Positions 8,299 to 27,938 of a DNA stretch of 32,000 bases are shown here, in pieces. The stretch is from Candidatus Saccharimonadota bacterium (lineage in GTDB: Archaea; Nanobdellota; Nanobdellia; Pacearchaeales; GW2011-AR1): contig JAFCEL010000001.1 in the NCBI GenBank assembly GCA_017609205.1, positions 330,001 through 362,000 on the forward strand, in the 5' to 3' direction. The notes beneath the pieces were generated by a model that had not been told where the DNA came from, did not search any database, and saw only the letters and a program-made list of their open reading frames with translations. The translations under genes and the position numbers were made by a program. The stretch's first letter is position 1. Every line of letters begins with the position of its first letter.

Positions 8299-8643
8299 TT
8301 ATATTAAATTCTTTAATTCAGATTTTCTTACGAATTCGAGGGGTTGGAACATTTTTGCCTGTTTTTTTAGAATTTCTAAATCTTCTTTTTTTGCAAATTT
8401 GGAAAACTCTTTTGAGGCCGTTTCTAAAAAAGAAATTAACCTTTCCATATTTTTTTGTATTGTTTCTATTTGTTTTTTTAATTCTATTATCTCTTGTTCT
8501 TGTTTTTCTTTTATTTCAATAAGATTCTCACCTATTAAAAGAAGGCGATTTTTTAGAATTTTCTGTTTTTCTTCTACATCTTTTATACGGGAATTTATCT
8601 CATTAAAGTATTGTCCAGAATAATCTACCTCTTCTTTAGCCAT
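8299..8643 (-). CDS. Small coiled-coil protein
   Basis: 114 aa, K/E/I/L-rich heptad-like sequence. Sits 1 nt upstream of 7605-8297 on the same strand. The overlapping + strand ORF is F/S-rich, typical of an antisense shadow. Confidence 0.6.
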   Translation of the reverse strand: MAKEEVDYSGQYFNEINSRIKDVEEKQKILKNRLLLIGENLIEIKEKQEQEIIELKKQIETIQKNMERLISFLETASKEFSKFAKKEDLEILKKQAKMFQPLEFVRKSELKNLI

Positions 8644-8736: not shown

Positions 8737-11025
8737 ATGCAGTTTGAAAAAGGTGAGAGATTATATTCTTCAAGGGTTCAAAGAGAGAGCGGTGAAGATG
8801 TATTGTATATTAATTATTTAGGGGCTCCTTATGTTCCGAGTCTTGAAAATTCCGAGGAGGTAATGGAGAGAACTATTGAGGCTTTAATTGAGAATCCGAA
8901 TGTTTCAAGAGTTGTTTTTGTTCAGCAGAAAAATTATAATTATGATTTTGAAGAGGTTTCAATGCTTCTTGAGATTTCTCATTTGTATGTTCATTTAATG
9001 AAACAGGAAAAGATTTTGTCGCATAATAAGTTAGTAACTAATTGTGAGCAGTTTTTTAATGAGAGATATAATGATATTTTTTCTTTTTTGCTATTATTGA
9101 AGAGAGACCCTGTTGCAGCTTATTTCGAGCTTAAGAAGCTTATTTTAGAAGCAAAGATTTTCCTTGAAAAAGTTGATGTGCATTGCAGAACAGATCAAGC
9201 TAATTACATTTCCCTTCTTGAGAAAGTTCTTAGGTTATTACAGAATACAAAGCTTATTCAAAAAGCAAGCAAGTATTTAGAGAATTATCGAAAAGGAGAG
9301 AGGCTTATCTATGAGAGATTATTTAATGCAGATGTTATACCCAATTTTACTTTTACCCGTCTTGTTTCTGATTTGCCAAAAGACGCAGAAATTATTGACC
9401 AGTATAAAATTCATGGAGAGGATTATGATGAGTCGATTGTAACTATTCTTAAAAAAAAGGATGAATCAAAAGTAATCTATCATATTGTTCCTCCGGAAAA
9501 TTCCCTTGAAGAAGATGCTAATTATTTATTGAATACTGCTAAAAGTGTTTTGATTGAACATCAGCCTAAAGCAGAAGAATATACTGATACTGAAAGAACA
9601 AGGCAGGTTTTTTTTAATATTTCTAAAGATTTATTGAGAGATTTGGCGAATAATAAAGGGATTAAATTGAATTATGATGAGTTAAATAAGTTAGCTATGA
9701 TCTTGGTCAGGCATACTGTTGGTTTTGGGATTGTTGAGGTTTTATTACAGGATAAAAAAATACAAGATATCTCCTTGAATGCCCCAATTCCTATGACGCC
9801 AATTTTTTTAAGGCACGAGAAGTATGGCGAATGTTTTACAAATATTCTTCCTAGCCAAGAGGATGCTAATTCATGGGCAGCTAAATTCAGAATGATTTCT
9901 GGAAGGCCTCTTGATGAGGCGAATCCTATTTTAGATACTCAGTTAGAAATTGGAAATGTAAGAGCGAGAATAGCGATTATTCAAACACCTCTGTCCCCTG
10001 GTGGGTTAGCTTATGCTATAAGAAGACACCGAGAACAACCATGGACGCTTCCACTTTTTATAAAGAATAGGATGGTCAATGATTTTACTGCTGGTTTGTT
10101 GAGTTTTTTGATTGATGGGTCAAGAACTCTTCTTGTAGCAGGAACTAGAAGTTCTGGTAAAACCTCTTTATTGGGAAGCCTTCTTTTAGAGATAATACCC
10201 AAGCATAGAATAATTGTTCTTGAAGACACTCTTGAATTGCCTGTTGAATCTTTAAGAAAATTAAATTATGATGTTCTAAGGATGAAGGTTCGTTCTGCCT
10301 TATTGAAAACCACCACAGAAGTTTCTGCTTCAGAAGGGATCAGAACTTCATTAAGATTAGGGGATAGTTCTTTAATCGTCGGTGAAATTAGAAGTGAGGA
10401 GGCAACTGCGTTGTATGAAGCAATGAGGGTTGGTGCTTTAGCAAATGTTGTTGCTGGCACAATTCATGGAGCATCACCTTATGCTGTTTTTGATAGGGTG
10501 GTTAATGATTTAAAAGTTCCGACGACAAGTTTTAAGGCAACTGATTTGATTATTGTATGCAATCCAATTAAATCTCCTGATGGACTACATTCTTGGAAGA
10601 GAGTCTTGCAGGTTGCTGAGGTCAGAAAACATTGGAATAAAGACCCTCTTGAAGAAAGGGGTTTTGTGGATTTGCTTAAATATAATGTGGATAAGGATGA
10701 ATTAGAGCCTACGGATGATTTGATTAATGGTGATAGTGAGATTATAAAAGATATTGCGGCGAATGTTAAAGGGTGGGCAGGAAATTGGGATGCTGTTTAT
10801 GATAATATTCTGCTAAGGGCTAGAATTAAAAAAGAAATTGTGGATGTTGCTGAGAAGACTAAAAATGAGAAATTGCTTGAGGCAGAATTTAATGTTTTAT
10901 CTAATCATATGTTTCATAAGATTTCCGATGATATCCGAAGAGAGATTGGTTTGCCTTTGAGGGAGAGGGTTTTTCCTGAATGGCAGAAGTGGTTGAATGA
11001 AGAGATTAAAAAAAAGAGGATTTAA
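8737..11025 (+). CDS. Type IV pilus/archaellum-family secretion ATPase (FlaI/PilB/GspE/VirB11 superfamily)
   Basis: Walker A AGTRSSGKTS, Walker B-type IIVLEDTLEL and His-box AGTIHG. Has a long N-terminal extension and is followed directly by a polytopic partner gene. Confidence 0.9.
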   Translation: MQFEKGERLYSSRVQRESGEDVLYINYLGAPYVPSLENSEEVMERTIEALIENPNVSRVVFVQQKNYNYDFEEVSMLLEISHLYVHLMKQEKILSHNKLVTNCEQFFNERYNDIFSFLLLLKRDPVAAYFELKKLILEAKIFLEKVDVHCRTDQANYISLLEKVLRLLQNTKLIQKASKYLENYRKGERLIYERLFNADVIPNFTFTRLVSDLPKDAEIIDQYKIHGEDYDESIVTILKKKDESKVIYHIVPPENSLEEDANYLLNTAKSVLIEHQPKAEEYTDTERTRQVFFNISKDLLRDLANNKGIKLNYDELNKLAMILVRHTVGFGIVEVLLQDKKIQDISLNAPIPMTPIFLRHEKYGECFTNILPSQEDANSWAAKFRMISGRPLDEANPILDTQLEIGNVRARIAIIQTPLSPGGLAYAIRRHREQPWTLPLFIKNRMVNDFTAGLLSFLIDGSRTLLVAGTRSSGKTSLLGSLLLEIIPKHRIIVLEDTLELPVESLRKLNYDVLRMKVRSALLKTTTEVSASEGIRTSLRLGDSSLIVGEIRSEEATALYEAMRVGALANVVAGTIHGASPYAVFDRVVNDLKVPTTSFKATDLIIVCNPIKSPDGLHSWKRVLQVAEVRKHWNKDPLEERGFVDLLKYNVDKDELEPTDDLINGDSEIIKDIAANVKGWAGNWDAVYDNILLRARIKKEIVDVAEKTKNEKLLEAEFNVLSNHMFHKISDDIRREIGLPLRERVFPEWQKWLNEEIKKKRI

Positions 11026-11039
11026 GGAAGATTTATTAA

Positions 11040-13235
11040 TTGTTTTCTCTTTTTATTTCTGAAAAGATGGTGTCAAATAAGAAATCTGTTCAAGATATCC
11101 TGAGGGAGCATTCTGCAAGAATCGAGAAGCAAATTAATACAAGTAATATTAATGAGTCGAGTTATAGTGGAGATTATTTAAGGTTTAAGCAGGAGAGAAT
11201 ACCTGAATTAACAAGGTATGAGAAATGGTGTAAAAGTCTTGGGAATATTTTTAGATTAAAAATATCAGAGAAGGATAAATCACGGGTAAGAAAAAATCTG
11301 AACATCGCACATTTGGATGTTGAACCAGAGCAAGCACTTACACTTAGTATTGTGTCCTTTGTAGGAATTCTTCTTTTTGGATTGTTAATCTCTGTTGCAG
11401 TTGTTTTAATTAGAGGAGATCTGTCTTCTTTTCCTATTTTATTTTTTATTCTTGTAATTATTTTGTCTTTGTTTATCTTTTACTTTACGAAAAATTATCC
11501 TGCGAGACTTGCGAATAAGTGGAGACTAAAAGCTTCGTCGCAGATGGTTCCTGCAATCTTGTACATTGTTGTTTATATGAGGCATACACCTAATCTTGAA
11601 AAAGCGATTGCTTTTGCTTCAGAGCATCTTCAGCCACCTTTGGCACTTGACTTAAAGAAAGTTTTTTATGATGTTTCTATCGGAAGGTTTTCAACAATAA
11701 AGGAAAGTCTGGATTTTTATCTTGAGACTTGGAGGGATTATTCCCCTGAGTTTATAGAATCCTTTCACTTGATTGAAAGTAGCTTATTTGAACCAGATAA
11801 TAACAGAAGAATCTTGATTCTTGAGAAATCCTTGCAGGTTGTTCTCGACGGAGTTTATGATAAGATGTTGAAATTTACTCATAATGTTCGCTCTCCTTTG
11901 ACAAATGTTTATATGTTAGGTGTTGTTCTTCCAACGTTGGGGCTTGCTCTTCTTCCTCTTGCTTCTGCAATGATTGGAGGATTGATTAAATGGCATCATA
12001 TTTTTCTTTTGTTCAATCTTATTGTTCCTTTTTTTGTTTTTTACCTCACAGATAAGATTATGTTTTTAAGACCAGGAGGTTATGGAGAGACGACTTTATT
12101 AGAGAGGAATCCTCTTTATCCAAAATATAAAAGTAAGAAACCTTATCTCATTGCCTTTTTTGTTTGCCTGCCTTTTTTAGTTTTAGGGTTTCTTCCTTTT
12201 ATTTTTCAGTATACCCCTATTCCTTCTTTAGTAGGGCTTCAGAAGGATTATACTCTTGAACAGGTAGGTCTTGGGTTTTTTGGAAAGGATTACCTTTTTG
12301 ATTTTAAGGAATCATCTTCAGGGGTTGTAGGACCTTTTGGTATTCTTGCACTTATTCTTAGTTTTTTTATTCCAATAGGAATAGCTTTATTTTTTGCGAT
12401 TTCTTTTAAGATGAAAACAGAGGAATTGATTGTTGAAAGAGAAAAAACTCGTGAATTAGAAAAAGAATTTAATAATTCTCTTTTTCAGTTGGGAAATAGA
12501 ATTGGTAATGGAATTCCCCCTGAATTAGTATTTGGAAAGGTTGCTGAATCTGCAAAAGGCCTTAGAACAGAGGATTTATTTCGAAGAATTAATTACAATA
12601 TTCAACAAATGGGTATGAGTGTTGAGAAAGCTGTTTTTGATAAAAATCGTGGGGTCTTAATTTATTATCCTTCTGATTTGATTGCAACTTCTATGAGGAT
12701 TCTTATTGAATCTTCTAAAAAAGGATTAAATATTGCTGCAGTGAGTTTGATGAGCATTTCTCAATATGTTAAGAATATCCAGAAGATTACTGAGAGATTA
12801 AAGGATATGCTTGCAGAAATTGTTTCTGATATGAAAAGCAATATGACTTTTCTTGCTCCACTTCTTTCTGGAATTGTCGTAGGGTTGGCTATGATGATGA
12901 CATCGATTCTTAATAAGCTTAATTTTTCTACTCTTGGTGGAGGAGAAGGTTCTCTTGGAATTGGGAGTCTTGGGACGATTCTTCAGATTTTTGATGTAAC
13001 GAGGATGATTCCCCCTTATTATCTTCAAATTATTGTGGGTATTTATCTTATTGAAATCATATTTATCCTAACAGGAGCCCTTGTTACAATTAACTCGGGT
13101 GAAGATAAACTTGAGAGAACAAACAAAGCAGGAGGAAATTTTATGAGGGGAATTTTATTATATTCTCTTACAGCCTTTTTTGCATCAATTGCTCTTTTTG
13201 CTTTAACTTCAATTGTTCTTGGAAATTTATTCTAG
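11040..13235 (+). CDS. FlaJ/PilC/TadC-like polytopic platform protein
   Basis: 731-aa ORF with two clusters of transmembrane helices separated by soluble regions. It sits directly after the ATPase, as in archaeal type IV pilus loci. The start is TTG 11040 or ATG 11067. Confidence 0.7.
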   Translation: MFSLFISEKMVSNKKSVQDILREHSARIEKQINTSNINESSYSGDYLRFKQERIPELTRYEKWCKSLGNIFRLKISEKDKSRVRKNLNIAHLDVEPEQALTLSIVSFVGILLFGLLISVAVVLIRGDLSSFPILFFILVIILSLFIFYFTKNYPARLANKWRLKASSQMVPAILYIVVYMRHTPNLEKAIAFASEHLQPPLALDLKKVFYDVSIGRFSTIKESLDFYLETWRDYSPEFIESFHLIESSLFEPDNNRRILILEKSLQVVLDGVYDKMLKFTHNVRSPLTNVYMLGVVLPTLGLALLPLASAMIGGLIKWHHIFLLFNLIVPFFVFYLTDKIMFLRPGGYGETTLLERNPLYPKYKSKKPYLIAFFVCLPFLVLGFLPFIFQYTPIPSLVGLQKDYTLEQVGLGFFGKDYLFDFKESSSGVVGPFGILALILSFFIPIGIALFFAISFKMKTEELIVEREKTRELEKEFNNSLFQLGNRIGNGIPPELVFGKVAESAKGLRTEDLFRRINYNIQQMGMSVEKAVFDKNRGVLIYYPSDLIATSMRILIESSKKGLNIAAVSLMSISQYVKNIQKITERLKDMLAEIVSDMKSNMTFLAPLLSGIVVGLAMMMTSILNKLNFSTLGGGEGSLGIGSLGTILQIFDVTRMIPPYYLQIIVGIYLIEIIFILTGALVTINSGEDKLERTNKAGGNFMRGILLYSLTAFFASIALFALTSIVLGNLF

Positions 13236-13271
13236 CAGAAGTTTTATTAATAACAGATTTGTTTTAGAGTT

Positions 13272-13436
13272 ATGAAGTTTTTTTGTAAAAAAGGTGATGT
13301 TGAGACTAGTCAGCTAATAGGATGGGCCATTGCTATTGGCGTCTTTATTATTTTCTTCCTTTTTTTTATTAAGGGTGGAGAATGGGGGAAAGGAGCTGTT
13401 GATTTTGTAAGAAATCTTGTGAGGTTTGGAAGATGA
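13272..13436 (+). CDS. Mini prepilin-like protein (54 aa), not in ORF track
   Basis: MKFFCKKG|DVETSQLIGWAIAIGVFIIFFLFFI...: basic N-region, Gly, then a hydrophobic helix. Its TGA overlaps the next gene's ATG (ATGA at 13433-13436). Similar to the 42-aa ORF at 15104. Confidence 0.6.
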   Translation: MKFFCKKGDVETSQLIGWAIAIGVFIIFFLFFIKGGEWGKGAVDFVRNLVRFGR

Positions 13437-14194
13437 AATGTAAGAAAGCGAGTATTGCAACTGATAAACCAATTATTTTGATAATAGGGCTTGTTGTTCT
13501 TGTGATTATTCTTAGTTTTATTTTCTTATTTGATCCTGACAAGGTTTTTGCCTTTTTTCCTGATTTTTCTTCTGCAAATGAGGATGTGGATGCAGATATT
13601 GGAAATATAGATTATTATTTATCTGAGTCTGCTTATATTGGTGTAGAATTCTTGGATTTTAAGGAGAGGAGTGAAGAGGAACTTTTAGAAGAAATGGATT
13701 ATGGGGAGAATGTGTTAAAAAAATGTTTTTGTGGTAAGGATTGTGAAGATTATGCAATGTGGATTGTGAAGTATTCTAAAGAGAATGATATCCCTGATCC
13801 CTTGCTTTTGTTGTCTATTATGATGCAGGAGAGTTCTTGCAAAAAAGACGCTTCTTCAGGAAGTTCTTTTGGCCTAATGCAAGTGAATTTAGTTCATTGT
13901 GGAAATTATGGTTTACCTGAAGATAAGGAAGAATGCAAAAAAATTCTTTTGGAAAATCCTGAGCAAAATATCAGGGTTGGTGCAAGGATTTTGAGAGATT
14001 CTTATAATATTTATCATAAAGGAAAGGTCTTTTCTAATGCATGTACAAAGGAATATCAAAAAGTTTTTTACAATGATTGGAAAGCAGCGATTAGAGGTTA
14101 TAATGGATGGGGGTGTGATAAGAATTATCCTCAGCAAGATAAATATGTGGAGGAGGTTGTTGCAAAATATAATCTTTTGTATAATATAAAATGA
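13433..14194 (+). CDS. Prepilin-like N-terminus fused to a lytic transglycosylase (SLT) domain
   Basis: N-terminus MKCKKASIATDKPIILIIGLVVLVIILSFIFLF. SLT motifs SIMMQESSC (catalytic E-S), FGLMQV and AAIRGYNGWG. Confidence 0.8.
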   Translation: MKCKKASIATDKPIILIIGLVVLVIILSFIFLFDPDKVFAFFPDFSSANEDVDADIGNIDYYLSESAYIGVEFLDFKERSEEELLEEMDYGENVLKKCFCGKDCEDYAMWIVKYSKENDIPDPLLLLSIMMQESSCKKDASSGSSFGLMQVNLVHCGNYGLPEDKEECKKILLENPEQNIRVGARILRDSYNIYHKGKVFSNACTKEYQKVFYNDWKAAIRGYNGWGCDKNYPQQDKYVEEVVAKYNLLYNIK

Positions 14195-15093
14195 ACAATC
14201 ACGGTGATATAACATTAAAAGAATTTCTTGGAATAGCCATATTTATTATTGCAACACTTGTATTCTTTTTCCCCTTAGTTGGGAAATCCTGGGCAGTATT
14301 CAAAGGTGTTTCTGACAAGGAAAAATCAGATGTGAAACTTAATTTAATTTTTGAGAAGGTAGAGAAGATGGTTAGCGAGAATATTTCAGAGGATAGAAGC
14401 ATTCTCCTTGATTCTCCTAGAAATTGGTTTTTAGTGGGTTCTGGGGATAAGTTGTGTATTTGTAAAAATCTTGCAAAAGATGATGAGAATCAAGAGGAAG
14501 TTTGTAAAAGATATGGGGGAGTTTGTTCTGAGATGAGTTATGCTTTTAAAGTCGATTCTTATGAAGTGGATAATTCTAGAATGCAGGCAATTGTTGGGCG
14601 ACAATACGCTATAAAATTCGAAGTAAATAATTTTCTTGTAATAAGAAAAGATAAAAATAATTCTTTTATTTTTAGACCAAGTTCTGCTGAAACTGAACTG
14701 AATGATTTGTTGATGGATTATTTAGGTTCTAAGATTATTTACAACGGAAAACAGCAGACAATAGGTGAGTTTGTTAAGGACGCTTGTGAGAATCCAGAAT
14801 TATTCTATGAGAAATTATTTGAAAAGCATTTTTATAGTTTTTTTAATAGTGAAAAAATCCCTGAAGGGGAGCATATTAGAGTTGAATTTGGAAATCGATT
14901 GAGTCTTGGAAGCGAGAACTATGGGTTAATAAGTTCAGTTACTCTTCGAGAGATAAATTATCCTAAGGATTCACAATTTTCTAATAATTTTGTTCCTAAT
15001 GGAAAGTTTTCCACTAAACTTCCAACGACTTATGAGATTTTAAATGATGATTGTGTAGTTTATTTAACTTCCACAACAGGCAATCTAAATTAG
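14191..15093 (+). CDS. Prepilin-like protein (300 aa)
   Basis: MNNHG|DITLKEFLGIAIFIIATLVFFFPLV. ATGA overlap with the upstream gene. No other domain recognised. Confidence 0.6.
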   Translation: MNNHGDITLKEFLGIAIFIIATLVFFFPLVGKSWAVFKGVSDKEKSDVKLNLIFEKVEKMVSENISEDRSILLDSPRNWFLVGSGDKLCICKNLAKDDENQEEVCKRYGGVCSEMSYAFKVDSYEVDNSRMQAIVGRQYAIKFEVNNFLVIRKDKNNSFIFRPSSAETELNDLLMDYLGSKIIYNGKQQTIGEFVKDACENPELFYEKLFEKHFYSFFNSEKIPEGEHIRVEFGNRLSLGSENYGLISSVTLREINYPKDSQFSNNFVPNGKFSTKLPTTYEILNDDCVVYLTSTTGNLN

Positions 15094-15103
15094 AAAAAAT
15101 AAA

Positions 15104-15232
15104 ATGGTAAAAAAATTAGATAGAAAAGGTGAAATTTCAGAAATTCATTTTATTGACTGGTTATTATGGCTTGTTTTAGGCGTGATCCTTTTTGCAATAG
15201 TTTTTTATTTAAAAAAAAGGTTGTTTAATTAA
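15104..15232 (+). CDS. Mini prepilin-like protein (42 aa), not in ORF track
   Basis: MVKKLDRKG|EISEIHFIDWLLWLVLGVILFAIVFYLKKRLFN. Its stop is 1 nt before the next ATG (15234). Pattern KG-[DE]-[VI]-x-[ET]-x3-I-x-W is shared with the 13272 ORF. Confidence 0.55.
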   Translation: MVKKLDRKGEISEIHFIDWLLWLVLGVILFAIVFYLKKRLFN

Positions 15233-15233
15233 G

Positions 15234-16121
15234 ATGGAGAAGAGAGGATCGATTGTTGCAAACAAATTTGTGGGGATAGCTCTTTTAATTGCAGGGGCTA
15301 TGTTGATTATAGGATTTTTTTATTTTATAGATTGGGAAAAAGAAATTAGTCGCGAAGCATGTCACGAGTCAGTTATTGTTAGGGGAACACTACCAGACAC
15401 TTTTGAGTTTAAGAATCTTCCTTCGTTAAATTGTCAGACAAAAAGAATTTGTATTACTGATAAGCTGTTTGGGAAAGGAGATTGTGGTTATACTTCTTCA
15501 GATAATCCTGAGACAATAAGGGTTTCAAGTATTGCAGAGAAACAGGATAAAGAGATAAATAAAATCTTTGCAAGGGAAATGGCTGACTGCTGGGCAATGA
15601 TGGGTGAAGGAAAATTACAGATATTTACAAGGAATACTATTACAAAAAAGAGATGTTCTATTTGTACAATAATCTCTTTTGATGATGATTTAAGGAAAAA
15701 ACGAGATGTTATCTATGGTTTAGGTGATTATCTTATGACAAAACAGGTTCCTGGGAAAGAGCAGTCTTATGCTTTATTTTTAAAATTAAATAGAACTGAC
15801 TTAGAGAATCTGAATGGGATAACGACTAAAAGAAAGGCAATTTTATTCTTTGAAGTAGATAAATCTGATTTTTTAGAAAAAGGAGGCTTTGTTGTTGGGG
15901 GCATTGCTGGTTTTGTATTGGGAAAATTTGGAGGAAAACTTGCAAGTGTTGTAACAACAAAAACACTTTTTGCCATTGGGACTCTTGTTGGATATTCTGC
16001 GGGAGGTGTTGTTCAGGAAAAGATTTCTGAAGCAGATTATCTTTCTGGACATTCTCTTATTGATTATGACGAGGAACACTTAAAAGGGTTAGAGTGCGAT
16101 TCTATGGAAAGTCTCTCTTAG
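15234..16121 (+). CDS. Prepilin-like protein with a C-terminal glycine-zipper hydrophobic segment
   Basis: MEKRG|SIVANKFVGIALLIAGAMLIIGFFYF at the N-terminus. GGFVVGGIAGFVLGKFGGKLASVV...GTLVGYSAGGVV lies near the C-terminus. Several Cys in between. Confidence 0.6.
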   Translation: MEKRGSIVANKFVGIALLIAGAMLIIGFFYFIDWEKEISREACHESVIVRGTLPDTFEFKNLPSLNCQTKRICITDKLFGKGDCGYTSSDNPETIRVSSIAEKQDKEINKIFAREMADCWAMMGEGKLQIFTRNTITKKRCSICTIISFDDDLRKKRDVIYGLGDYLMTKQVPGKEQSYALFLKLNRTDLENLNGITTKRKAILFFEVDKSDFLEKGGFVVGGIAGFVLGKFGGKLASVVTTKTLFAIGTLVGYSAGGVVQEKISEADYLSGHSLIDYDEEHLKGLECDSMESLS

Positions 16122-16155
16122 TTAAATTTATAACTTTTCATTATTTATTGTTCTT

Positions 16156-16545
16156 ATGAAAAATAAAAGAGGGGATTTTGTTTTTGGCTATATTGTTACT
16201 ATTGCTGTTACTATAATCTTTTTTGTTATTTGTTTTGTTTTTTTATCAAGGGCATCAAGTGGGGCTGCAGTTTATGAGCAGGCATATTCAAAACAAATCG
16301 CTTTGATTATTGATAATGCAAGACCAAACACTATTTTTGAAATAGATTTTAGTGAAGGTATTGAATATCTTGAAAAAGAAAGAAAAAAGACACTAAGTAA
16401 TTCTGAAAAAAATTCTCTTGTTAAGATAGAAAATAATGAGGTAATTGTATCCCTCTCACAAGAAGGTTATTCCTCTGTTTTTTTTAGTGATTATGACGTT
16501 AGTTCCTCTTTTAATGAAAATAAACTTGTTTTGGTTGTAACATAA
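16156..16545 (+). CDS. Prepilin-like protein (129 aa)
   Basis: MKNKRG|DFVFGYIVTIAVTIIFFVICFVFL followed by a small soluble domain. Confidence 0.65.
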   Translation: MKNKRGDFVFGYIVTIAVTIIFFVICFVFLSRASSGAAVYEQAYSKQIALIIDNARPNTIFEIDFSEGIEYLEKERKKTLSNSEKNSLVKIENNEVIVSLSQEGYSSVFFSDYDVSSSFNENKLVLVVT

Positions 16546-16546
16546 A

Positions 16547-17038
16547 ATGAACAAAAAAGGAGAGAGAATTTTTTCAGTATGGTGGGTTCTTAGCATTGTC
16601 TTTATTAGTGTTGTTTTTGCAGGTGCAGTTTATATGATTTATTCAACAGACGTTAACATTCGTGATGAAGAATCAAAGATTCTGTATGAGAGAATTTATG
16701 ATTGTATTATTGAAAATGGTTATGTTTCTGAGGATTTTTTGAAGAATGATTTTGATATTTTTTCTGTGTGTAAATTGAATAAGAATCTTTTTTCAGAAGG
16801 ATTATTTGCATTTAGTATTTCTCTTTATGATGAAAATGATAATCTTGTTCAGGATAAATTCACAACTGGTTTTTCTGATATCTCTGAGAGATGTGTTTAT
16901 TCGAGAAGTTCAAAAAATTCTCCCACCTGCTTTGATAAAAAGTCTCTTGTTTTCTATTTTGATTCAAATAAAATCAGAAAGGGTTATCTTGAGATTCTTA
17001 CTGTTTCGAATAATTTTGAAAAGGGAGGTAGCAGATGA
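16547..17038 (+). CDS. Prepilin-like protein (163 aa)
   Basis: MNKKG|ERIFSVWWVLSIVFISVVFAGAVYMIY. Starts 1 nt after the previous stop. Confidence 0.65.
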   Translation: MNKKGERIFSVWWVLSIVFISVVFAGAVYMIYSTDVNIRDEESKILYERIYDCIIENGYVSEDFLKNDFDIFSVCKLNKNLFSEGLFAFSISLYDENDNLVQDKFTTGFSDISERCVYSRSSKNSPTCFDKKSLVFYFDSNKIRKGYLEILTVSNNFEKGGSR

Positions 17039-17577
17039 TATTGAGAAATAAGTGCGGTGGAATTCCGGAATCATTTTCTTGGTTTGTTGGTTTTTTAATA
17101 ATAATCTTTTTTTGTATTTTATTTCTTGCAGGAGTTTCATATTCAAAAGCAAAAAGTATTCCTCTTTCTTTTGGGGTTGGGGGCAATAATGTTGAAGGAT
17201 TTGGTGAAGGGGGTTGTGAGAAGGCCCTGAGTGAAGCCCTTATTAAGTTTGTCAATTATCCAGTAGCCCTTGAAAACGATTATAAGACTATTAAGGAATT
17301 TATTTCTGAAGATAATTTGTCGGATAATTTGTTCAAGGATTCTTCTGACGAGGTTTTTTCATCTTCCTTTCCAAAAAGTAGTTGGAAAGGTGGAGAGCCT
17401 CCTTGGTGGATAAAGGTTTATGGGTCTGATGGAAAAGAGATTTTTAGTAATGGGGGACGAATCTGCGAGTCAAAAGAGGAAGGTATTTATGAGCCAAGAG
17501 AAGATATTGTTTATGAGGTTTTAATTAAAGATAAGAAGGTTGTTGCGTGTTTGCTTAGAACATATTGTTCAGACTAA
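17035..17577 (+). CDS. Prepilin-like protein (180 aa)
   Basis: MILRNKCGG|IPESFSWFVGFLIIIFFCILFLAGV. ATGA overlap with the upstream gene. Confidence 0.6.
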   Translation: MILRNKCGGIPESFSWFVGFLIIIFFCILFLAGVSYSKAKSIPLSFGVGGNNVEGFGEGGCEKALSEALIKFVNYPVALENDYKTIKEFISEDNLSDNLFKDSSDEVFSSSFPKSSWKGGEPPWWIKVYGSDGKEIFSNGGRICESKEEGIYEPREDIVYEVLIKDKKVVACLLRTYCSD

Positions 17578-17578
17578 G

Positions 17579-18043
17579 ATGAAATCAAAAAATAATGCAG
17601 GAGTGATTGATGTTGTTGTAGTTGTTATGCTTTTTTTCGCATTAGTAGTTTCTTCTTTATTTGTTTTTTCAATGAGTTTTTCAAAGGCAAAAGTGAAAAT
17701 TTATGATTATCAGTTTATTGACGGTTTTTATGCAAAAGAGAAAATTGCAAAATATTATATTTTAGATGCAGGTCAAAAAGCAAAAAAGAAGATAAAAACT
17801 TTTTCTGATAAAGATGCTGTGAGAATTAATTTTATTTCTTATTTTAAGACTATTTTTTCTAACTATTCTTTTGATGAAGATTATTTAATCGAGCTTCAGA
17901 ATTCTGTGGAAAAAGATAATTTTGAGGTCGTTGTTGACGACGAGAAAATAATTATCAATGTTTATATGGAAATAAGTGGTTCGACAAGGAGTTTGAAAAT
18001 TATTTATCGTCCTGTGATTATAGAAGAATTTTATCTAGATTAA
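17579..18043 (+). CDS. Prepilin-like protein (154 aa)
   Basis: ATG at 17579 gives MKSKNNAG|VIDVVVVVMLFFALVVSSLFVF, 1 nt after the upstream stop. The track's alternative (non-ATG) start at 17540 would overlap the upstream gene by 38 nt. Confidence 0.6.
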   Translation: MKSKNNAGVIDVVVVVMLFFALVVSSLFVFSMSFSKAKVKIYDYQFIDGFYAKEKIAKYYILDAGQKAKKKIKTFSDKDAVRINFISYFKTIFSNYSFDEDYLIELQNSVEKDNFEVVVDDEKIIINVYMEISGSTRSLKIIYRPVIIEEFYLD

Positions 18044-18057
18044 AAACATTTATAAAT
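18042..18057 (+). promoter_or_regulatory. BRE/TATA-like promoter element of the Cys-rich prepilin-like gene (aaaaacatttataaat)
   Basis: Same 16-mer as at 27896-27911, ending about 21 nt upstream of ATG 18078. It lies in the only spacer over 30 nt inside the pilin gene string. Confidence 0.5.
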
Positions 18058-18077
18058 CTTATCTAATTAATAGAGAT

Positions 18078-18737
18078 ATGATAATAAAAAGGTGTGATAA
18101 ACATGGAGAAACTCAAGCATGGATTATTGGAATTATTCTTGCGATTGTTATTGGGGGATTAATATTATTTTTTGCTTCTAATGCATTCAGTAAAGTTGAG
18201 GGAGTTATAAATAAAGCTGATTTGGATATAGGGTTGATTTCACAAAAGTGTGATATTCAAATTGATATTTCAAAAGGAGAGGCTTATTGTGCTGAAAAGA
18301 TTCCTATTGGAGAAAGTAACAATTACATCACCTGCCCATATGCTAAGAAAAAGTTTGGCGTTACAACGGAGAGAGATATGCCTGAATGTGATATTGATGA
18401 GGGAGCAAAGGCTGTTTGTAGGAAATTGCTTGCAGAAGATAGCACAATTAAACCTGAGAAAATTTATGTTAATGAAAAACCTTGTTATAAGGCAGGGGGA
18501 ACAATAGGAAAGGATCATTGGGGGATTAATAGAGGAAGCTTTTGTGATGGGAATGCGATTGCTTGTGATAAATTGAGTTTATCAAATGACCCTCAGAAAG
18601 CAAAAAATGAGTGCGAATCCCAAAAAGGATGCGAATATAAAGAGAGTAAATGTGTTGGGACAGTCACTGCTTGTATAACTTTTGATGAATCACCCGAATG
18701 CGAATCCCAAAAAGGATGCTCTTGGATTGAAGTATAA
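18078..18737 (+). CDS. Cys-rich prepilin-like protein (219 aa)
   Basis: MIIKRCDKHG|ETQAWIIGIILAIVIGGLILFF, then a soluble region with about 15 Cys (hand count). It includes a duplicated ECESQKGC-x-[YW] unit. TATA-like box at 18049-18056. Confidence 0.65.
   Translation: MIIKRCDKHGETQAWIIGIILAIVIGGLILFFASNAFSKVEGVINKADLDIGLISQKCDIQIDISKGEAYCAEKIPIGESNNYITCPYAKKKFGVTTERDMPECDIDEGAKAVCRKLLAEDSTIKPEKIYVNEKPCYKAGGTIGKDHWGINRGSFCDGNAIACDKLSLSNDPQKAKNECESQKGCEYKESKCVGTVTACITFDESPECESQKGCSWIEV
18612..18719 (+). repeat. Intragenic 87-nt-period direct repeat (tgcgaatcccaaaaaggatgc x2)
   Basis: A 21-nt perfect repeat at 18612-18632 and 18699-18719 encoding CESQKGC twice within the 18078-18737 ORF. Confidence 0.85.
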
Positions 18738-18767
18738 ATATTTAAATTCTAATAAGTTTAATTTTAT

Positions 18768-18884
18768 ATGGCTCGTGGGGATGCTGAGCGACGGAATAAA
18801 GCAAAGAACAAAAGAAAAGAAAAGAAAAAACACCCTTATAGAAAAGGTGGTAAATATCGCTCTACAGGTTTAAAGCAGAAGTAA
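18768..18884 (+). CDS. Very basic 38-aa ORF, not in ORF track
   Basis: MARGDAERRNKAKNKRKEKKKHPYRKGGKYRSTGLKQK. TATA-like atatttaaat at 18738-18747 lies about 21 nt upstream of the ATG. Coding status is uncertain. Confidence 0.3.
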   Translation: MARGDAERRNKAKNKRKEKKKHPYRKGGKYRSTGLKQK

Positions 18885-18914
18885 TTTTATAAAGTTATCT
18901 TGTTTTTTTTATGA

Positions 18915-19739
18915 ATGTATAATGTGATTTTTTTGAGTGTTTTGACTATCTGTTGGATGATTGTTGCGAGTATTCAGGATATTAGGAAAAGAGAAATTGC
19001 TAATTGGCTTAATTTTTCTCTTATTATCTTTGCTCTTGGTTTTAGGTTTTTTTATTCTTCTTTTACTCATAATTTTGGGTTTTTTTATCAAGGGTTAATT
19101 GGATTAGGGATTTTTTTTGTTATTGGAAATATTTTTTATTATGGAAAGGTCTTTGCTGGGGGTGATGGAAAATTAATGGTTGCTCTCGGAGCAGTTCTTC
19201 CTTTTTCTGATAATTTTTTAACAAATATATCTGTTTTTATTGCTTTTATTTTTATTTTTTTAACAATTGGGGGGTTGTATGGTCTAGTCTGGAGTTTTGT
19301 TTTGGGAATTAAGAATTTTAAAAAATTAGAAAAAGAGTTTATTATCCAATTCAAGAAAAATAGAAAAGTTATTTTTTTAGTTTTAATTCCTGTATTCTCA
19401 ATGTTTTTGATATCTAGTCTAGTCTGGAGTTTGTTTTTTTATTTTGCTATATTAATCCTTGTTTTTGCTATTTTGTTTTTGTATGCAAGAAGTATAGAGG
19501 AAGTTTGCATGGTTAAAAAGATCTCAGTAGATGATTTAACAGAAGGAGACTGGCTTTATCGAACTGTTAGGGTTGGAAGGAAAGTTGTGAAGTCTAAGTG
19601 GGAAGGTGTTAATAAAGAGGAAATTAAATTGATAAGAAAATACCATAATAGGGTTAAGGTAAAATATGGAATCCCTTTTGCTCCGGTTTTTTTGATTAGT
19701 TTTCTGTTTTTGGTCTCTTTTTGGTTTGTGGTATTTTAA
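18915..19739 (+). CDS. A24-family prepilin/preflagellin peptidase (FlaK/PibD/EppA-like)
   Basis: Polytopic. First catalytic Asp context ASIQDIRKREI in TM1 and second Asp in a GxGD-type motif (FAGGDGKLMV). Extra soluble segment VDDLTEGDWLYRTVRVGRKVV before the last helix. Confidence 0.85.
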   Translation: MYNVIFLSVLTICWMIVASIQDIRKREIANWLNFSLIIFALGFRFFYSSFTHNFGFFYQGLIGLGIFFVIGNIFYYGKVFAGGDGKLMVALGAVLPFSDNFLTNISVFIAFIFIFLTIGGLYGLVWSFVLGIKNFKKLEKEFIIQFKKNRKVIFLVLIPVFSMFLISSLVWSLFFYFAILILVFAILFLYARSIEEVCMVKKISVDDLTEGDWLYRTVRVGRKVVKSKWEGVNKEEIKLIRKYHNRVKVKYGIPFAPVFLISFLFLVSFWFVVF

Positions 19740-19740
19740 T

Positions 19741-20349
19741 TTAAGGGATCCTTGGATTAATCCAAATGTCTTTTGCACTAATTTGTTTTATTGATGATTT
19801 TCCTTTTTTTTCAGTTAATTTTTTTTGGAGTTTTTTTAATTCTTCTTGTTCTGCAGATTTTCTTGGAGAATTTATATCTTCTTCTTTGTAAATCGGAAGG
19901 ATGTTAATGATTTCATGGCCTAGAATATTCTGGGTTGATATTTCAACTTCTTTTGGTTTTAGCTTTTCTTGTATTTTTTCCTTAACTTTTTTAGCTAAGA
20001 CAAAAATTTCCTCTGAAAATTCTTTTCTTGAGGATAAATGCTTTTTAGGAACTATTAGGGTATGTCCTTTTGAAATAGGGTTTATCTCTAATATAGCAAC
20101 TGCTTCTTCATTCTCGTCTATTTTATAGGAGGGAGTGTCTCTAGAGATAATTGAACAAAAGATACATTTTTGTCGAGAGGTATCTCGATTTTTTATTAAG
20201 CCGTTTTGTATTACAAATTCCTCAAGTTTTTCATTATTCATTTCTTTGAGTTTAGTTATTGCCTCTTCTTTTTTTTCTTCAGGAAATGTAGAATTAATTT
20301 GTTGAATTAATTTTTTTTTGATTTCTTTAATTTGTTCCTGTGTTAACAT
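19741..20349 (-). CDS. HIT-superfamily-like protein with a degenerate histidine triad
   Basis: CIFCSIISRD..., ILEINPISKGHTLIVPKKH match the HIT fold. Where H-x-H-x-H-x-x is expected the sequence reads GHEIINILP. About 60-aa K/E-rich N-terminal extension and a K-rich C-terminal tail. Confidence 0.65.
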   Translation of the reverse strand: MLTQEQIKEIKKKLIQQINSTFPEEKKEEAITKLKEMNNEKLEEFVIQNGLIKNRDTSRQKCIFCSIISRDTPSYKIDENEEAVAILEINPISKGHTLIVPKKHLSSRKEFSEEIFVLAKKVKEKIQEKLKPKEVEISTQNILGHEIINILPIYKEEDINSPRKSAEQEELKKLQKKLTEKKGKSSIKQISAKDIWINPRIP

Positions 20350-21416: not shown

Positions 21417-21453
21417 GGTTATCTGAAATTAAAGAAGTTTTTAAAATTTAGGT

Positions 21454-22251: not shown

Positions 22252-22345
22252 TTTTTATAATGGATAAATTCTTTTTAAATATTCTGTTTTGTAAATTGCA
22301 TTTTATTTTAGAAATATTTAAAAATAAAAAAAGCATGACTAACCT

Positions 22346-23062: not shown

Positions 23063-23106
23063 TCATTAATCCTAAATCTTAAAAACTCTTTTTGTTTTAG
23101 TTTTTT

Positions 23107-27911: not shown

Positions 27912-27938
27912 GGGTTTTTATTAAATAAAATAATAAAA

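What the first reader, a model, noticed from the sequence alone, without database searches (positions are those of the whole stretch)
8737..19739. Eleven-kb type IV pilus-like operon with ten consecutive class III signal peptide proteins and its own prepilin peptidase
The ATPase (8737) and the FlaJ/PilC-like platform protein (11040) are followed by ten ORFs joined by ATGA overlaps or gaps of 1-10 nt. The exceptions are 34-nt spacers at 16122-16155 and 18044-18077.

Each ORF starts with a short basic region, a Gly (once Ala), then a hydrophobic helix of about 20 aa:
- KKG|DVETSQLIGW
- KKA|SIATDKPIILII
- NHG|DITLKEFLGI
- RKG|EISEIHFIDW
- KRG|SIVANKFVGI
- KRG|DFVFGYIV
- KKG|ERIFSVWW
- CGG|IPESFSWF
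- NAG|VIDVVVVV
- KHG|ETQAWIIG

An A24 peptidase with both catalytic Asp motifs closes the locus. There is no archaellin, FlaH or FlaF/G, so this is not an archaellum.

Two things are unusual. There are a large number of different pilin-like subunits. Most also have a polar, usually acidic, 4-8 residue spacer between the putative cleavage Gly and the hydrophobic core.
Basis: partly seen in the sequence, partly recalled or inferred. Interest (0 to 1): 0.7.

Follow-up and report, generated by a model that had tools for sequence, protein, structure and literature searches.

The report
Archaeal pilus operon carrying bacterial-wall-cutting enzymes
This is a real type IV pilus-like gene cluster, conserved across tiny Pacearchaeota/Woesearchaeota (DPANN) archaea, in which some pilin-like subunits are fused to enzymes that cut bacterial cell wall, suggesting these uncultured archaea use the filament to attach to or attack bacteria.

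Summary
Window 8737-19739 encodes a secretion ATPase, a very divergent T2SSF-type platform protein, ten consecutive small proteins with a short basic leader, Gly/Ala and a ~20-aa hydrophobic helix, and an A24 prepilin peptidase with both catalytic Asp.

The contig is archaeal. The same gene order recurs in about 50-60 of 80 Pacearchaeota/Woesearchaeota genome loci.

Eight of the ten subunit families keep [KR][GA] at -2/-1, often with Glu at +4/+5. Two families (p2, p4) normally have no leader. The "polar spacer" and the many subunits are therefore not unusual for type IV filaments.

The new point is that p2 (13433-14194) carries an SLT lytic transglycosylase module with intact ES/GLMQ/YNG motifs. 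In related operons this module sits on at least four other subunit scaffolds. Amidase_2 and Peptidase_M23 modules occur on others.

None of the subunits, nor the platform, matches a Pfam or NCBIfam family.

Best reading: a Pacearchaeota-specific type IV filament whose minor subunits display peptidoglycan hydrolases aimed at bacteria. It is a new variant of a known kind. The function is inferred, not shown.

The parts
8737..11025 (+). Secretion/assembly ATPase (762 aa) of the PilB/GspE/FlaI/TadA superfamily, with a ~220-aa N-terminal extension
   Evidence: PF00437 T2SSE 55.6 bits, cut-off 24.9. Below the cut-off of the FlaI, TadA, BasE and VirB11 NCBIfam models. Best solved relative is A. fulgidus GspE 2OAP (E=2.8e-30), then CpaF and FlaI; the match starts at residue 217. 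Walker A GTRSSGKTS, Walker B IIVLED, GEIRSEEA and the His box TIHGAS can be read. Median 74% identity in 71 related loci.
11040..13235 (+). Polytopic platform protein, a very divergent T2SSF/TadC/FlaJ-type (731 aa from TTG 11040; probable true start ATG 11067, 722 aa)
   Evidence: No Pfam or NCBIfam hit itself. More than 3200 homologues at 65-80% identity in Pacearchaeota/Woesearchaeota/Nanoarchaeota. 14 of 34 distant (23-42% id) representatives hit PF00482 T2SSF, best E=3.2e-10. The AF2 model (pLDDT 66.6) matches the EpsF/OutF cytoplasmic domain locally (Foldseek prob 0.97-1.00, TM to target 0.58-0.70; Foldseek E-values 0.6-1.6, none significant). Two-repeat architecture.
13272..13436 (+). 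p1, 54-aa prepilin-like protein; candidate major subunit (inferred)
   Evidence: MKFFCKKG|DVETSQLIGW..., first gene after the platform. The orthologous position holds ~52-aa proteins with consensus KKG|IVSEYLPWLLIA, G at -1 in 53 of 55 anchored members and Glu at +4 in 80%.
13433..14194 (+). p2, pilin-like N-terminal helix fused to an SLT (GH23 family 1) lytic transglycosylase module (residues ~94-252)
   Evidence: PF01464 E=1.4e-12, 47.7 bits, cut-off 21.3. E133-S134, G147-L-M-Q150 and Y223-N-G225 are invariant in 21 homologues. The profile matches MltC, EmtA, Slt70 and EtgA in PDB with ES and GLMQ aligned. In most loci this position holds a leaderless 54-aa protein.
14191..15093 (+). p3, 300-aa pilin-like protein (long variant)
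   Evidence: MNNHG|DITLKEFLGI. Family consensus KKG|FLLAEETLKIIIAVI, with Phe+1 and Glu+5/+6 as in bacterial type IV pilins. Present in 44 of 47 complete loci.
15104..15232 (+). p4, 42-aa membrane peptide
   Evidence: RKG|EISEIHFIDW in the window. Orthologues are 33 aa and leaderless (MNLDxLIKYLIWIVFFG); present in 38 of 47 complete loci.
15234..16121 (+). p5, 295-aa conserved Cys-rich subunit with a C-terminal Gly-rich hydrophobic segment; possibly a membrane-anchored base component (inferred)
   Evidence: KRG|SIVANKFVGI. Family consensus KKG|ELTTQQIV...CHNSV. Present in 44 of 47 complete loci. Gly-zipper-like segment GGFVVGGIAGFVLGKFGG...GTLVGYSAGGVV.
16156..16545 (+). p6, 129-aa pilin-like subunit
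   Evidence: KRG|DFVFGYIV. Family consensus KKG|NILTENIIFI with Glu+5 in 76%. This scaffold carries the SLT module in L019, L021, L027, L031 and P0293.
16547..17038 (+). p7, 163-aa pilin-like subunit with a predicted helix-plus-beta-sheet architecture
   Evidence: KKG|ERIFSVWW. AF2 with 74 sequences gives pLDDT 84.3, pTM 0.70: helix 4-33 and 38-54, then four beta strands. 410 homologues. This scaffold carries SLT (P0280/L083) or Amidase_2 (L063) in other genomes.
17035..17577 (+). p8, 180-aa pilin-like subunit
   Evidence: NKCGG|IPESFSWF. Family consensus KKA|QVGETxTWVVAT, with Gln+1 and Glu+4 in 78%. This scaffold carries Amidase_2 in L007.
17579..18043 (+). p9, 154-aa pilin-like subunit (ATG start; the alternative TTG 17540 is less likely)
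   Evidence: MKSKNNAG|VIDVVVVV. Family consensus KRG|DIPITILVIGV. This scaffold carries SLT in L012, L022, L042, L043 and P0275/77/84/85.
18078..18737 (+). p10, 219-aa Cys-rich pilin-like subunit
   Evidence: DKHG|ETQAWIIG. Family consensus KRG|QGLSTNAIILIILG; present in 40 of 47 complete loci.
18768..18884 (+). Conserved 38-aa very basic protein (..RRNKxKxKRKEKKKHPYRKGG..), function unknown
   Evidence: Called by JGI. Found in 52 loci, always just upstream of the peptidase. Core motif 84-100% conserved. Heterozygosity by codon position is 0.18/0.16/0.44, indicating protein-level selection. No Pfam or NCBIfam hit.
18915..19739 (+). A24 prepilin (class III signal) peptidase, archaeal PibD/FlaK-like
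   Evidence: PF01478 52.4 bits, cut-off 26.5. Weak PF06819 Arc_PepC hit (21.9 bits, cut-off 23.4). NCBIfam FlaK 47.9 and EppA 19.5, both far below cut-off. D22 and GGD84 are at least 95% conserved in 50 orthologues.

Best explanation
The locus encodes a complete type IV filament (T4F/TFF) machine that is specific to, and highly conserved in, Pacearchaeota/Woesearchaeota-type DPANN archaea.

Proposed mechanism (inferred unless marked):
1. The A24 peptidase cuts the short basic leader after the conserved Gly/Ala of p1, p3 and p5-p10, and in this genome probably also p2 and p4.
2. The hexameric ATPase and the platform protein pull the processed subunits out of the membrane by their N-terminal helices and polymerise them.
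3. The tiny p1 (about 46 aa when mature, essentially one helix, Flp-like) is the likely bulk subunit.
4. p3 and p6-p10 are minor, priming or tip subunits. p5 may stay in the membrane as a base.
5. The minor subunits act as carriers. In this window p2 displays an intact family-1 lytic transglycosylase. In sister operons the same module, or an Amidase_2 or M23 module, sits on p3-, p6-, p7-, p8- or p9-type carriers.
6. All three enzyme types cut bonds that exist in bacterial murein but not in archaeal envelopes. The filament is therefore most likely used to contact bacteria and locally open their wall, for attachment, feeding or killing.

Shown by computation: the gene content, conservation, motifs, domain identities and module shuffling.
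Inferred: cleavage, polymerisation, the role of p1, the position of the enzymes on the filament, and the bacterial target.
For: Core machine:
- ATPase hits PF00437.
- Platform is tied to T2SSF through distant homologues and local fold matches.
- Peptidase hits PF01478 with conserved D22/D84.

Subunits:
- Eight families have a conserved [KR][GA] site with Glu at +4/+5 or Gln/Glu/Asp at +1.
- They differ from the Sec signals of neighbouring genes.
- The p7 model has a long N-terminal helix plus a 4-stranded sheet, pLDDT 84.

Conservation:
- The same 14-gene order is seen in about 50-60 of 80 genome loci. Each subunit family is present in 33-44 of 47 complete loci.
- Platform 65-80% and ATPase ~74% identical across many MAGs.
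- The contig is archaeal: RadA, Hef/ERCC4 and RPA are present.

Hydrolases:
- p2 SLT has ES/GLMQ/YNG invariant.
- All 10 SLT modules found within +/-10 kb in the 81 loci lie inside the operon, on three scaffolds. p7-type and p3-type carriers were confirmed in operon context.
- Amidase_2 sits on p7 and p8 scaffolds (E=2.5e-17 and 3.4e-20).
- Peptidase_M23 sits on a KRG|VELPINK N-terminus (E=5.6e-19).
- 8 of 47 complete operons carry such a module.
- In p7- and p9-type carriers the module is inserted before the carrier's own C-terminal strands.

Precedents:
- Modular pilins in bacteria (PMC8179133).
- Class III-signal substrate-binding proteins of the bindosome (PMC4371748; 2026 preprint).
- SLT/GH23 genes already read as a sign of bacterial hosts for Pace/Woesearchaeota (PMC8204110, PMC9723730).
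Against: - No experiment exists. No cleavage, filament or enzyme activity has been shown for any member.
- None of the ten subunits hits any pilin family in Pfam or NCBIfam: not N_methyl, Class_IIIsignal, Flp_Fap or TadE.
- Foldseek of the p7 model found no pilin.
- Two families (p2, p4) usually lack a leader.
- p5 has a second hydrophobic region that fits a pilin poorly.
- The window's p3 and p8 lack a basic residue at -2.
- Only ~17% of operons carry a hydrolase, so wall cutting cannot be the core function of the machine.
- The hosts of these archaea are unknown.
- I did not check whether the MAGs encode a murein-like wall of their own.
Confidence: 0.6

Rival explanations
1. Same machine, but it builds a short pseudopilus or a bindosome-like surface layer rather than a long pilus. 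The class III N-termini then serve mainly to anchor and array enzymes and other ectodomains at the cell surface. Alternatively, the structure works as a T2SS-like piston.
For: - The operon has very many 'minor' subunits and one very small candidate major subunit, like T2SS and Com systems.
- Precedent exists for non-pilin proteins using class III signals in the Sulfolobus bindosome and in the 2026 census of SPIII binding proteins.
- The ATPase shows weak similarity to BasE (70.5 bits).
- p5 has a possible second membrane segment.
Against: - BasE is far below its cut-off (70.5 vs 1000).
- An archaeon with no outer membrane and no secretin has no obvious use for a piston.
- A Flp-like ~46-aa subunit is the type that builds long Tad/Flp pili in bacteria.
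- Sequence alone cannot distinguish filament length.
Confidence: 0.2
2. The SLT, amidase and M23 modules remodel the archaeon's own envelope to let the machine through, as VirB1, IagB, EtgA or FlgJ do in bacteria. They are not directed at other cells.
For: - In bacteria, specialised lytic transglycosylases are typically encoded inside secretion or pilus operons.
- p2 has weak NCBIfam similarity to IagB and MltC, and the SLT profile matches EtgA.
Against: - Archaea are not known to have murein (established knowledge).
- Family-1 lytic transglycosylases, MurNAc-L-Ala amidases and M23 endopeptidases act on bonds absent from S-layers and from pseudomurein.
- Only 8 of 47 complete operons carry a hydrolase, yet the machine is conserved in all.
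- The enzymes are fused to the subunits themselves, on changing scaffolds.
Confidence: 0.08
3. The filament is mainly a DNA- or nutrient-uptake (competence-like) pilus. The hydrolases lyse neighbouring bacteria to release DNA and nucleotides for a metabolically minimal cell.
For: - The gene order (ATPase, platform, small major pilin, string of minor pilins) mirrors the monoderm ComG operon (my knowledge).
- Pacearchaeota are thought to live on scavenged nucleotides (PMC8204110 abstract).
- RadA and RPA lie nearby in the window, though this may be coincidence.
Against: - No ComEC/ComEA-like channel and no DNA-binding module was seen in the window or in the operons.
- No retraction ATPase was found.
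- The idea overlaps rather than competes with the main explanation.
Confidence: 0.1
4. The N-termini are ordinary Sec signal anchors. The ten proteins are unrelated membrane-anchored exoproteins that merely sit next to a pilus ATPase, platform and peptidase.
For: - No pilin family hit for any of them.
- Foldseek found no pilin for p7.
Against: - G/A at -1 is conserved in eight families over dozens of genomes, with Glu at +4/+5.
- Gene order is fixed, with translational coupling, between platform and peptidase.
- Genuine Sec signals in the same window look different.
- The p7 model has a helix-plus-sheet architecture.
Confidence: 0.04

Closest known systems
Archaeal type IV pili / TFF systems (Makarova, Koonin & Albers 2016, PMC4858521; Sivabalasarma & Albers 2026 preprint 10.64898/2026.04.22.720090). 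The closest are the euryarchaeal 'clade/system 2' type with one ATPase plus one TadC-like platform, and the multi-pilin Epd 'system 1'.
   Same: - Secretion ATPase, polytopic platform, class III-signal subunits and an A24 peptidase.
- Many minor pilin-like genes in one operon, as in Epd.
- Gln+1 or Glu+5-type processing sites, as in EppA substrates.
- The closest solved ATPase is the archaeal afGspE.
   Different: - One fused ~720-aa platform, not the two platform genes of system 1.
- A small PibD/FlaK-type peptidase encoded in the operon, not EppA (19.5 bits vs cut-off 450).
- The platform and all subunits fall outside existing Pfam/NCBIfam families.
- The ATPase has a distinctive ~220-aa N-terminal extension.
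- A conserved tiny basic protein is present.
- Subunits carry murein hydrolases.
- Pace/Woesearchaeota are not named in the text of either census (term searches).
Bacterial modular type IV pilins (S. sanguinis PilB/PilC; Raynaud et al. 2021, PMC8179133)
   Same: - A small pilin-like carrier with a functional module grafted on or inserted.
- The same module appears on different carriers.
- Presentation by the filament is presumed.
   Different: - Those pilins are bacterial, defined by the IPR012902/N_methyl motif, which is absent here.
- The modules described there are mostly adhesive (vWA, lectins), with some predicted peptidases (S74, M26).
- No murein hydrolase module is mentioned in that paper.
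Sulfolobus bindosome (Bas system) and SPIII substrate-binding proteins
   Same: - Functional, non-pilin ectodomains use class III signal peptides.
- A dedicated ATPase and platform assemble them at the cell surface.
   Different: - The cargo there is sugar- or substrate-binding proteins encoded next to ABC transporters.
- Here the cargo is cell-wall hydrolases encoded inside the assembly operon.
- The ATPase is not a BasE orthologue (70.5 bits vs cut-off 1000).
Tad/Flp pili
   Same: - A very small (~45-50 aa mature) candidate major subunit.
- The p1-family motif G|xxSEY resembles the Flp G/xxxxEY motif.
- CpaF and TadA are among the best ATPase matches.
   Different: - No Flp_Fap or TadE Pfam hit.
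- TadA model scores 121 bits vs cut-off 373.
- No secretin or TadZ.
- A single platform rather than TadB plus TadC.
Specialised lytic transglycosylases of bacterial secretion and pilus systems (VirB1, IagB, EtgA, R64 PilT), and the large extracellular SLT proteins of Pace/Woesearchaeota (Castelle et al. 2021; Vigneron et al. 2022)
   Same: - A family-1 SLT domain with ES/GLMQ/AYNxG-type motifs, encoded in a filament or secretion operon.
- The archaeal SLT genes are already interpreted as tools against bacterial walls.
   Different: - Here the domain is covalently fused to a class III-signal, pilin-like helix in an organism that should have no murein.
- The papers read did not connect SLT with a pilus system.

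Membership tests
Type IV filament (T4F/TFF) superfamily | PilB/GspE/FlaI-type secretion ATPase with Walker A/B, Asp and His boxes | tested here: met
   PF00437 55.6 bits, cut-off 24.9. PDB afGspE E=2.8e-30. Motifs can be read.
Type IV filament (T4F/TFF) superfamily | Polytopic platform protein of the GspF/PilC/TadC/FlaJ (T2SSF) family | tested here: met
   The evidence is indirect. The protein has no Pfam hit of its own. 14 of 34 distant homologues hit PF00482, best E=3.2e-10. Foldseek gives local matches to the EpsF/OutF cytoplasmic domain at prob 0.97-1.0, though with non-significant E-values (0.6-1.6).
Type IV filament (T4F/TFF) superfamily | A24 aspartic prepilin peptidase with two catalytic Asp | tested here: met
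   PF01478 52.4 bits, cut-off 26.5. D22 and GGD84 are at least 95% conserved.
Type IV filament (T4F/TFF) superfamily | [quoted passage not shown] | tested here: met
   Met by motif for eight of the ten families; p2 and p4 are usually leaderless. Contrast with Sec signals. Actual cleavage is not testable here.
Type IV filament (T4F/TFF) superfamily | Pilin fold: long N-terminal helix packed on an antiparallel beta-sheet | tested here: inconclusive
   The p7 AF2 model (pLDDT 84.3) has helix 4-54 plus four strands. Foldseek against PDB returned no pilin and nothing with E<=0.001.
Archaellum | FlaI orthologue, archaellins, FlaH, FlaF/FlaG | tested here: not met
   FlaI equivalog 131 bits vs cut-off 550. 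No archaellin, FlaH or FlaF/G domain in any window ORF scanned.
Epd pili / archaeal TFF system 1 | Two platform genes, the large EppA peptidase, Class_IIIsignal (QxSxExxxL) pilins | tested here: not met
   A single ~720-aa platform. EppA model 19.5 bits vs cut-off 450. No PF04021 hit at E up to 10 or 1. Only p8 and p10 have Gln+1.
Tad/Flp pili | Flp_Fap pilin, TadE/F pseudopilins, TadA/CpaF ATPase, TadB plus TadC | tested here: not met
   TadA 121 bits vs cut-off 373. No Flp_Fap or TadE hit. There is only a motif resemblance, G|xxSEY.
Bindosome (Bas) system | BasE/BasF orthologues and class III-signal substrate-binding proteins | tested here: not met
   BasE 70.5 bits vs cut-off 1000. No substrate-binding domains in the operon.
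Family 1 lytic transglycosylases (SLT, GH23), for p2 | SLT fold with a catalytic Glu in an E-S motif, plus GLMQ and AYNxG-type motifs | tested here: met
   PF01464 47.7 bits, cut-off 21.3. E133-S134, GLMQ147-150 and YNG223-225 are invariant. Aligned to MltC, EmtA and Slt70. Activity was not tested.
Bacterial modular type IV pilins (IPR012902 plus an extra module) | N-terminal methylation motif (N_methyl, PF07963/IPR012902) followed by a non-pilus functional domain | tested here: not met
   No significant N_methyl hit. The architecture, a carrier helix or pilin-like domain plus an enzyme module, is the same.

The most novel reading that the evidence does not exclude
Pacearchaeota/Woesearchaeota assemble a lineage-specific type IV filament whose tip or minor subunits are interchangeable carriers for murein hydrolases: lytic transglycosylase, MurNAc-L-Ala amidase and M23 endopeptidase. 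The filament is a contact-dependent tool with which an archaeon breaches the wall of bacterial cells. This would be molecular evidence that these abundant uncultured DPANN archaea are episymbionts or predators of bacteria. It would be a cross-domain lifestyle not yet demonstrated for any archaeon, and the first pilus known to carry cell-wall lytic enzymes as subunits.
Probability: 0.4. Interest if true: 0.85.

Novelty: new variant of a known kind. Interest (0 to 1): 0.72.

Why it matters
1. Pace/Woesearchaeota are among the most abundant uncultured archaea, and their hosts are unknown. A conserved surface machine that carries three kinds of murein-specific hydrolases points to bacteria as partners or prey. 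It also gives concrete proteins to test: enzyme assays, antibodies, and cryo-ET targets.

2. The system is invisible to standard annotation. The platform and all subunits lack Pfam/NCBIfam hits. This probably explains the statement that type IV pilus components are 'missing in DPANN genomes', which was used to assign piliated ultra-small cells in cryo-TEM images to CPR bacteria (He et al. preprint). That assignment may need revisiting.

3. It extends the 'modular pilin / functionalised filament' idea to archaea and to lytic enzymes.

Tried and rejected
- Rfam (gathering threshold) and tRNA scans of the window found nothing.
- Pfam at E up to 10 on the ten window N-termini and short ORFs, and at E up to 1 on a typical operon (L006), gave no pilin-family hit: no N_methyl, Class_IIIsignal, Flp_Fap or TadE.
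- A profile of the platform against PDB sequences gave nothing meaningful.
- phmmer of p2 against PDB gave nothing. Only the family profile worked.
- Foldseek of the whole platform model returned only local EpsF/OutF matches with poor global E-values.
- Foldseek of the p7 model gave no pilin match.
- My first iterative HMMs for p1, p2, p4, p6 and p10 drifted across families because of the shared hydrophobic helix. I re-assigned families by position between robust single-copy anchors.
- NCBIfam on the flanking conserved genes and the tiny basic ORF gave nothing significant.
- Archaellum reading: rejected (see membership test).
- Bacterial (CPR) origin of the contig: rejected because RadA, Hef/ERCC4, RPA/DUF2240 and an archaeal-type peptidase are present.
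- I could not place the ATPase in the published clade scheme because no reference set was available. I did not analyse archaeal promoters, because the promoter tool covers sigma-70 only.

Full report
**Observation**

Gene spacing is as stated: ATGA overlaps at p1/p2, p2/p3 and p7/p8, gaps of 1-10 nt elsewhere, and 34-nt spacers at 16122-16155 and 18044-18077. Each of the ten proteins has a strongly hydrophobic 19-mer (Kyte-Doolittle mean 2.4-3.6) starting at residue 11-16. It is preceded by a few mostly basic residues and a Gly (Ala in p2).

Four corrections apply:
- p9 most plausibly starts at ATG 17579.
- The platform probably starts at ATG 11067. Homologues align from there.
- A 38-aa basic ORF at 18768-18884 was missed.
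- p2 contains an SLT domain.

**Source organism**

The window is archaeal and AT-rich (about 31% GC). It encodes RadA (PF08423, 301 bits), a Hef-like helicase plus an ERCC4 nuclease, and an RPA with DUF2240. The identical sequence lies on 57-kb JGI metagenome contigs. Close relatives of the platform protein come from MAGs labelled Pacearchaeota, Woesearchaeota or Nanoarchaeota.

**Core machine**

- ATPase (762 aa). It hits PF00437 above threshold. It falls far below the NCBIfam cut-offs for FlaI, TadA, BasE and VirB11. Its best solved relative is the archaeal secretion ATPase afGspE, then CpaF and FlaI. The match begins at residue ~217, so there is a distinctive N-terminal extension.
- Platform protein. 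It has no Pfam or NCBIfam hit and no sequence-level PDB match. An exhaustive HMMER search found 1037 cluster representatives. Of 34 representatives chosen down to 23% identity, 14 hit PF00482 T2SSF. An AF2 model (pLDDT 66.6) matches the EpsF/OutF cytoplasmic domain locally, with Foldseek probability 0.97-1.0 but non-significant E-values (0.6-1.6). I accept it as a highly divergent T2SSF/TadC/FlaJ-type platform.
- Peptidase. It hits PF01478, with a sub-threshold archaeal C-terminal domain hit. D22 and GGD84 are conserved in at least 95% of 50 orthologues.

**Conservation of the operon**

Among 80 genome loci fetched with the platform protein, tblastn and HMM searches recover a fixed order:

ATPase - platform - p1 (~52 aa) - p2 (~54 aa) - p3 (~166) - p4 (33) - p5 (~296) - p6 (~133) - p7 (~175) - p8 (~90-170) - p9 (~100) - p10 (~125) - tiny basic protein (~39 aa) - A24 peptidase.

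Each subunit family is present in 33-44 of the 47 loci that span platform to peptidase. The ATPase (median 74% identity to the window) and the platform (69%) are strikingly conserved. The subunits diverge fast, with mean pairwise identity of 0.28-0.44, as is usual for pilins.

**Are the ten proteins prepilin-like?**

I anchored on the last [KR][GA] before the hydrophobic core. Eight families show a conserved site in 77-86% of members:

| Family | Consensus around the site |
|---|---|
| p1 | KKG\|IVSEYLPW |
| p3 | KKG\|FLLAEETLK |
| p5 | KKG\|ELTTQQIV |
| p6 | KKG\|NILTEN |
| p7 | KKG\|xDKxxSVYWF |
| p8 | KKA\|QVGETxTW |
| p9 | KRG\|DIPITILV |
| p10 | KRG\|QGLSTNAI |

Glu sits at +4 (p1, p8) or +5 (p3, p6) in 71-80% of members. 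p3 even has Phe+1/Glu+5, the bacterial pilin signature. p1 resembles the Flp G/xxxxEY motif.

The p2 and p4 families are different. Most members start directly with MAELTIxQLIKII... or MNLDxLIKYLIW..., and only 18% and 14% have a leader. The window's copies (KKA|S..., RKG|E...) are exceptions.

As an internal control, four secreted proteins just downstream in the window carry ordinary Sec signals, with the hydrophobic core starting at residue 2-4.

An AF2 model of p7, built with 74 homologues, is confident (pLDDT 84.3, pTM 0.70). It shows a long N-terminal helix (4-33, 38-54) followed by four beta strands, the order expected for a pilin. Foldseek returned no pilin, however, so the fold test is inconclusive.

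No subunit from the window or from a typical operon hits any pilin family in Pfam.

Multi-pilin operons with their own peptidase are known (Epd/system 1). Polar or acidic +1..+5 residues are the norm for EppA substrates and bacterial pilins.

**What is unusual: murein hydrolases on the subunits**

p2 of the window carries PF01464 SLT (E=1.4e-12). In an alignment of 21 homologues, three motifs are invariant: the catalytic E133-S134, G147-L-M-Q150 and Y223-N-G225. By my knowledge these are the three hallmark motifs of family-1 lytic transglycosylases. The family profile aligns to MltC, EmtA, Slt70 and EtgA, with ES and GLMQ in register.

The N-termini of the homologues show that the same module sits on different carriers:
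- p2-type: P0272-74
- p9-type: P0275, P0277, P0284, P0285
- p7-type: P0280
- p6-type: P0293
- p3-type: P0290

In the 81 loci, ten carry the module. In every case it lies inside the operon:
- on p2: window, L003
- on p9: L012, L022, L042, L043
- on p6: L019, L021, L027, L031

In p7- and p9-type carriers the module is inserted ahead of the carrier's own C-terminal strands. Operon context was confirmed for the p7-type (L083) and the p3-type (L084).

Two further murein hydrolase types occur on these scaffolds:
- Amidase_2 on p7 (L063, E=2.5e-17) and on p8 (L007, E=3.4e-20).
- Peptidase_M23 on a KRG|VELPINK... N-terminus in L084 (E=5.6e-19). That operon also has an SLT subunit.

Overall, 8 of 47 complete operons and 12 of 81 loci carry such a module.

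These three enzyme classes cut the glycan strand, the MurNAc-L-Ala bond and the peptide cross-links of bacterial murein. None of these bonds is known in archaeal envelopes (established knowledge).

**Mechanism proposed**

The inferred steps are:
1. The peptidase removes the leaders.
2. The ATPase and platform polymerise the subunits.
3. p1 forms the bulk of the filament.
4. p3 and p6-p10 prime or cap it. p5, with a Gly-rich hydrophobic C-terminal segment, may remain membrane-bound.
5. Variable minor subunits display hydrolases that open bacterial walls on contact.

Only the gene content, motifs, conservation and module shuffling are shown.

The main rival is a short pseudopilus or bindosome-like surface array rather than a long pilus. 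Self-wall remodelling is disfavoured by the patchy distribution of the hydrolases and by the absence of murein in archaea, but I did not check the genomes for murein synthesis genes.

**Comparison with the literature**

- Makarova et al. 2016 and the 2026 Sivabalasarma & Albers preprint classify archaeal TFF systems. Term searches of both texts found DPANN mentioned only for system 1, 4A and Aap-like loci, no mention of Pace- or Woesearchaeota, and no mention of peptidoglycan, transglycosylase or amidase.
- Castelle et al. 2021, Vigneron et al. 2022 and others noted SLT/GH23 genes in Pace/Woesearchaeota and suggested bacterial hosts. In the passages retrieved they do not link these genes to pili.
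- He et al. (2020 preprint) state that type IV pilus components are 'missing in DPANN genomes', and used pili to call ultra-small cells CPR bacteria. The present system, with >3200 platform homologues and no Pfam signal, contradicts that premise for Pace/Woesearchaeota.
- Modular pilins are established in bacteria, without murein hydrolase modules in that paper.
- My literature search covers only the open-access library, so an existing description elsewhere cannot be excluded.

**Verdict**

The interpretation as a non-archaellum type IV filament operon is supported. The unusual feature is a conserved, unannotated Pacearchaeota filament system whose subunits serve as interchangeable carriers for murein hydrolases. 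I rate it a new variant of a known kind, with interest 0.72.

Noticed in passing
window 18768-18884 (+): A conserved 38-aa, extremely basic protein (core RRNKxKDKxKEKKKHPYKKGG) sits immediately upstream of the A24 peptidase in 52 related loci. The codon-position substitution pattern (0.18/0.16/0.44) indicates a real coding gene. There is no family hit. Its KKGG resembles a leader cleavage motif without a hydrophobic helix. Function unknown.
   Followed up: partly
window ~27900-32000 (+), runs off the 3' end: A giant open reading frame (>1380 aa within the window) encodes a Cys-rich, Asn/Asp/Trp-rich secreted protein with a Sec-type signal (..LALLVFVLFSFLAFVINSVSAEW). The ORF listing does not list it because it runs off the window end. 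It is probably one of the huge DPANN surface proteins.
   Followed up: partly
window 1-1394 (+): The C-terminal part of a 1172-aa Pel9A-like/beta-helix surface protein (JGI call on the full contig). A similar 1152-aa Laminin_G_3 plus beta-helix protein directly precedes the pilin-like gene string in L083. It may be an adhesin associated with the system.
   Followed up: no
window 7605-8297 (-) and 8299-8643 (-); 19741-20349 (-): A 230-aa protein and a 114-aa coiled-coil protein, transcribed divergently from the ATPase, are syntenic in 57 of the 82 fetched loci. A HIT-family protein downstream of the peptidase is syntenic in 48. No informative family hits for the first two. Whether they belong to the system is unknown.
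   Followed up: partly
window 20667-23796: Four consecutive ~230-265-aa secreted or membrane proteins with classical Sec signals and no family hits. Similar Sec-signal proteins occur as extra genes near the 3' end of some related operons, for example L007, L043, L048 and L081.
   Followed up: no
protein P0291 (263 aa, 3.5-kb JGI contig): A predicted protein combining the N-terminal half of the A24 peptidase with the SLT module (PF01478 plus PF01464). It may be a genuine fusion or an assembly or frameshift artefact.
   Followed up: no
related loci L007, L018, L027, L033 (p2 position, ~260-340 aa); L007, L018, L031, L071 (p9 position, ~250-290 aa); window p3 and L003/L007/L033/L039/L047 (p3, ~300-350 aa): Long variants of the subunits carry extra domains with no Pfam match. 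These may be further, unrecognised effector or adhesion modules.
   Followed up: partly
L084 (GCA_964361585.1 contig CAYIBB010000003.1): A rearranged version of the system. The platform has no adjacent ATPase. The peptidase lies ~6 kb downstream on the opposite strand. Both an M23 and an SLT subunit are present in one operon.
   Followed up: partly
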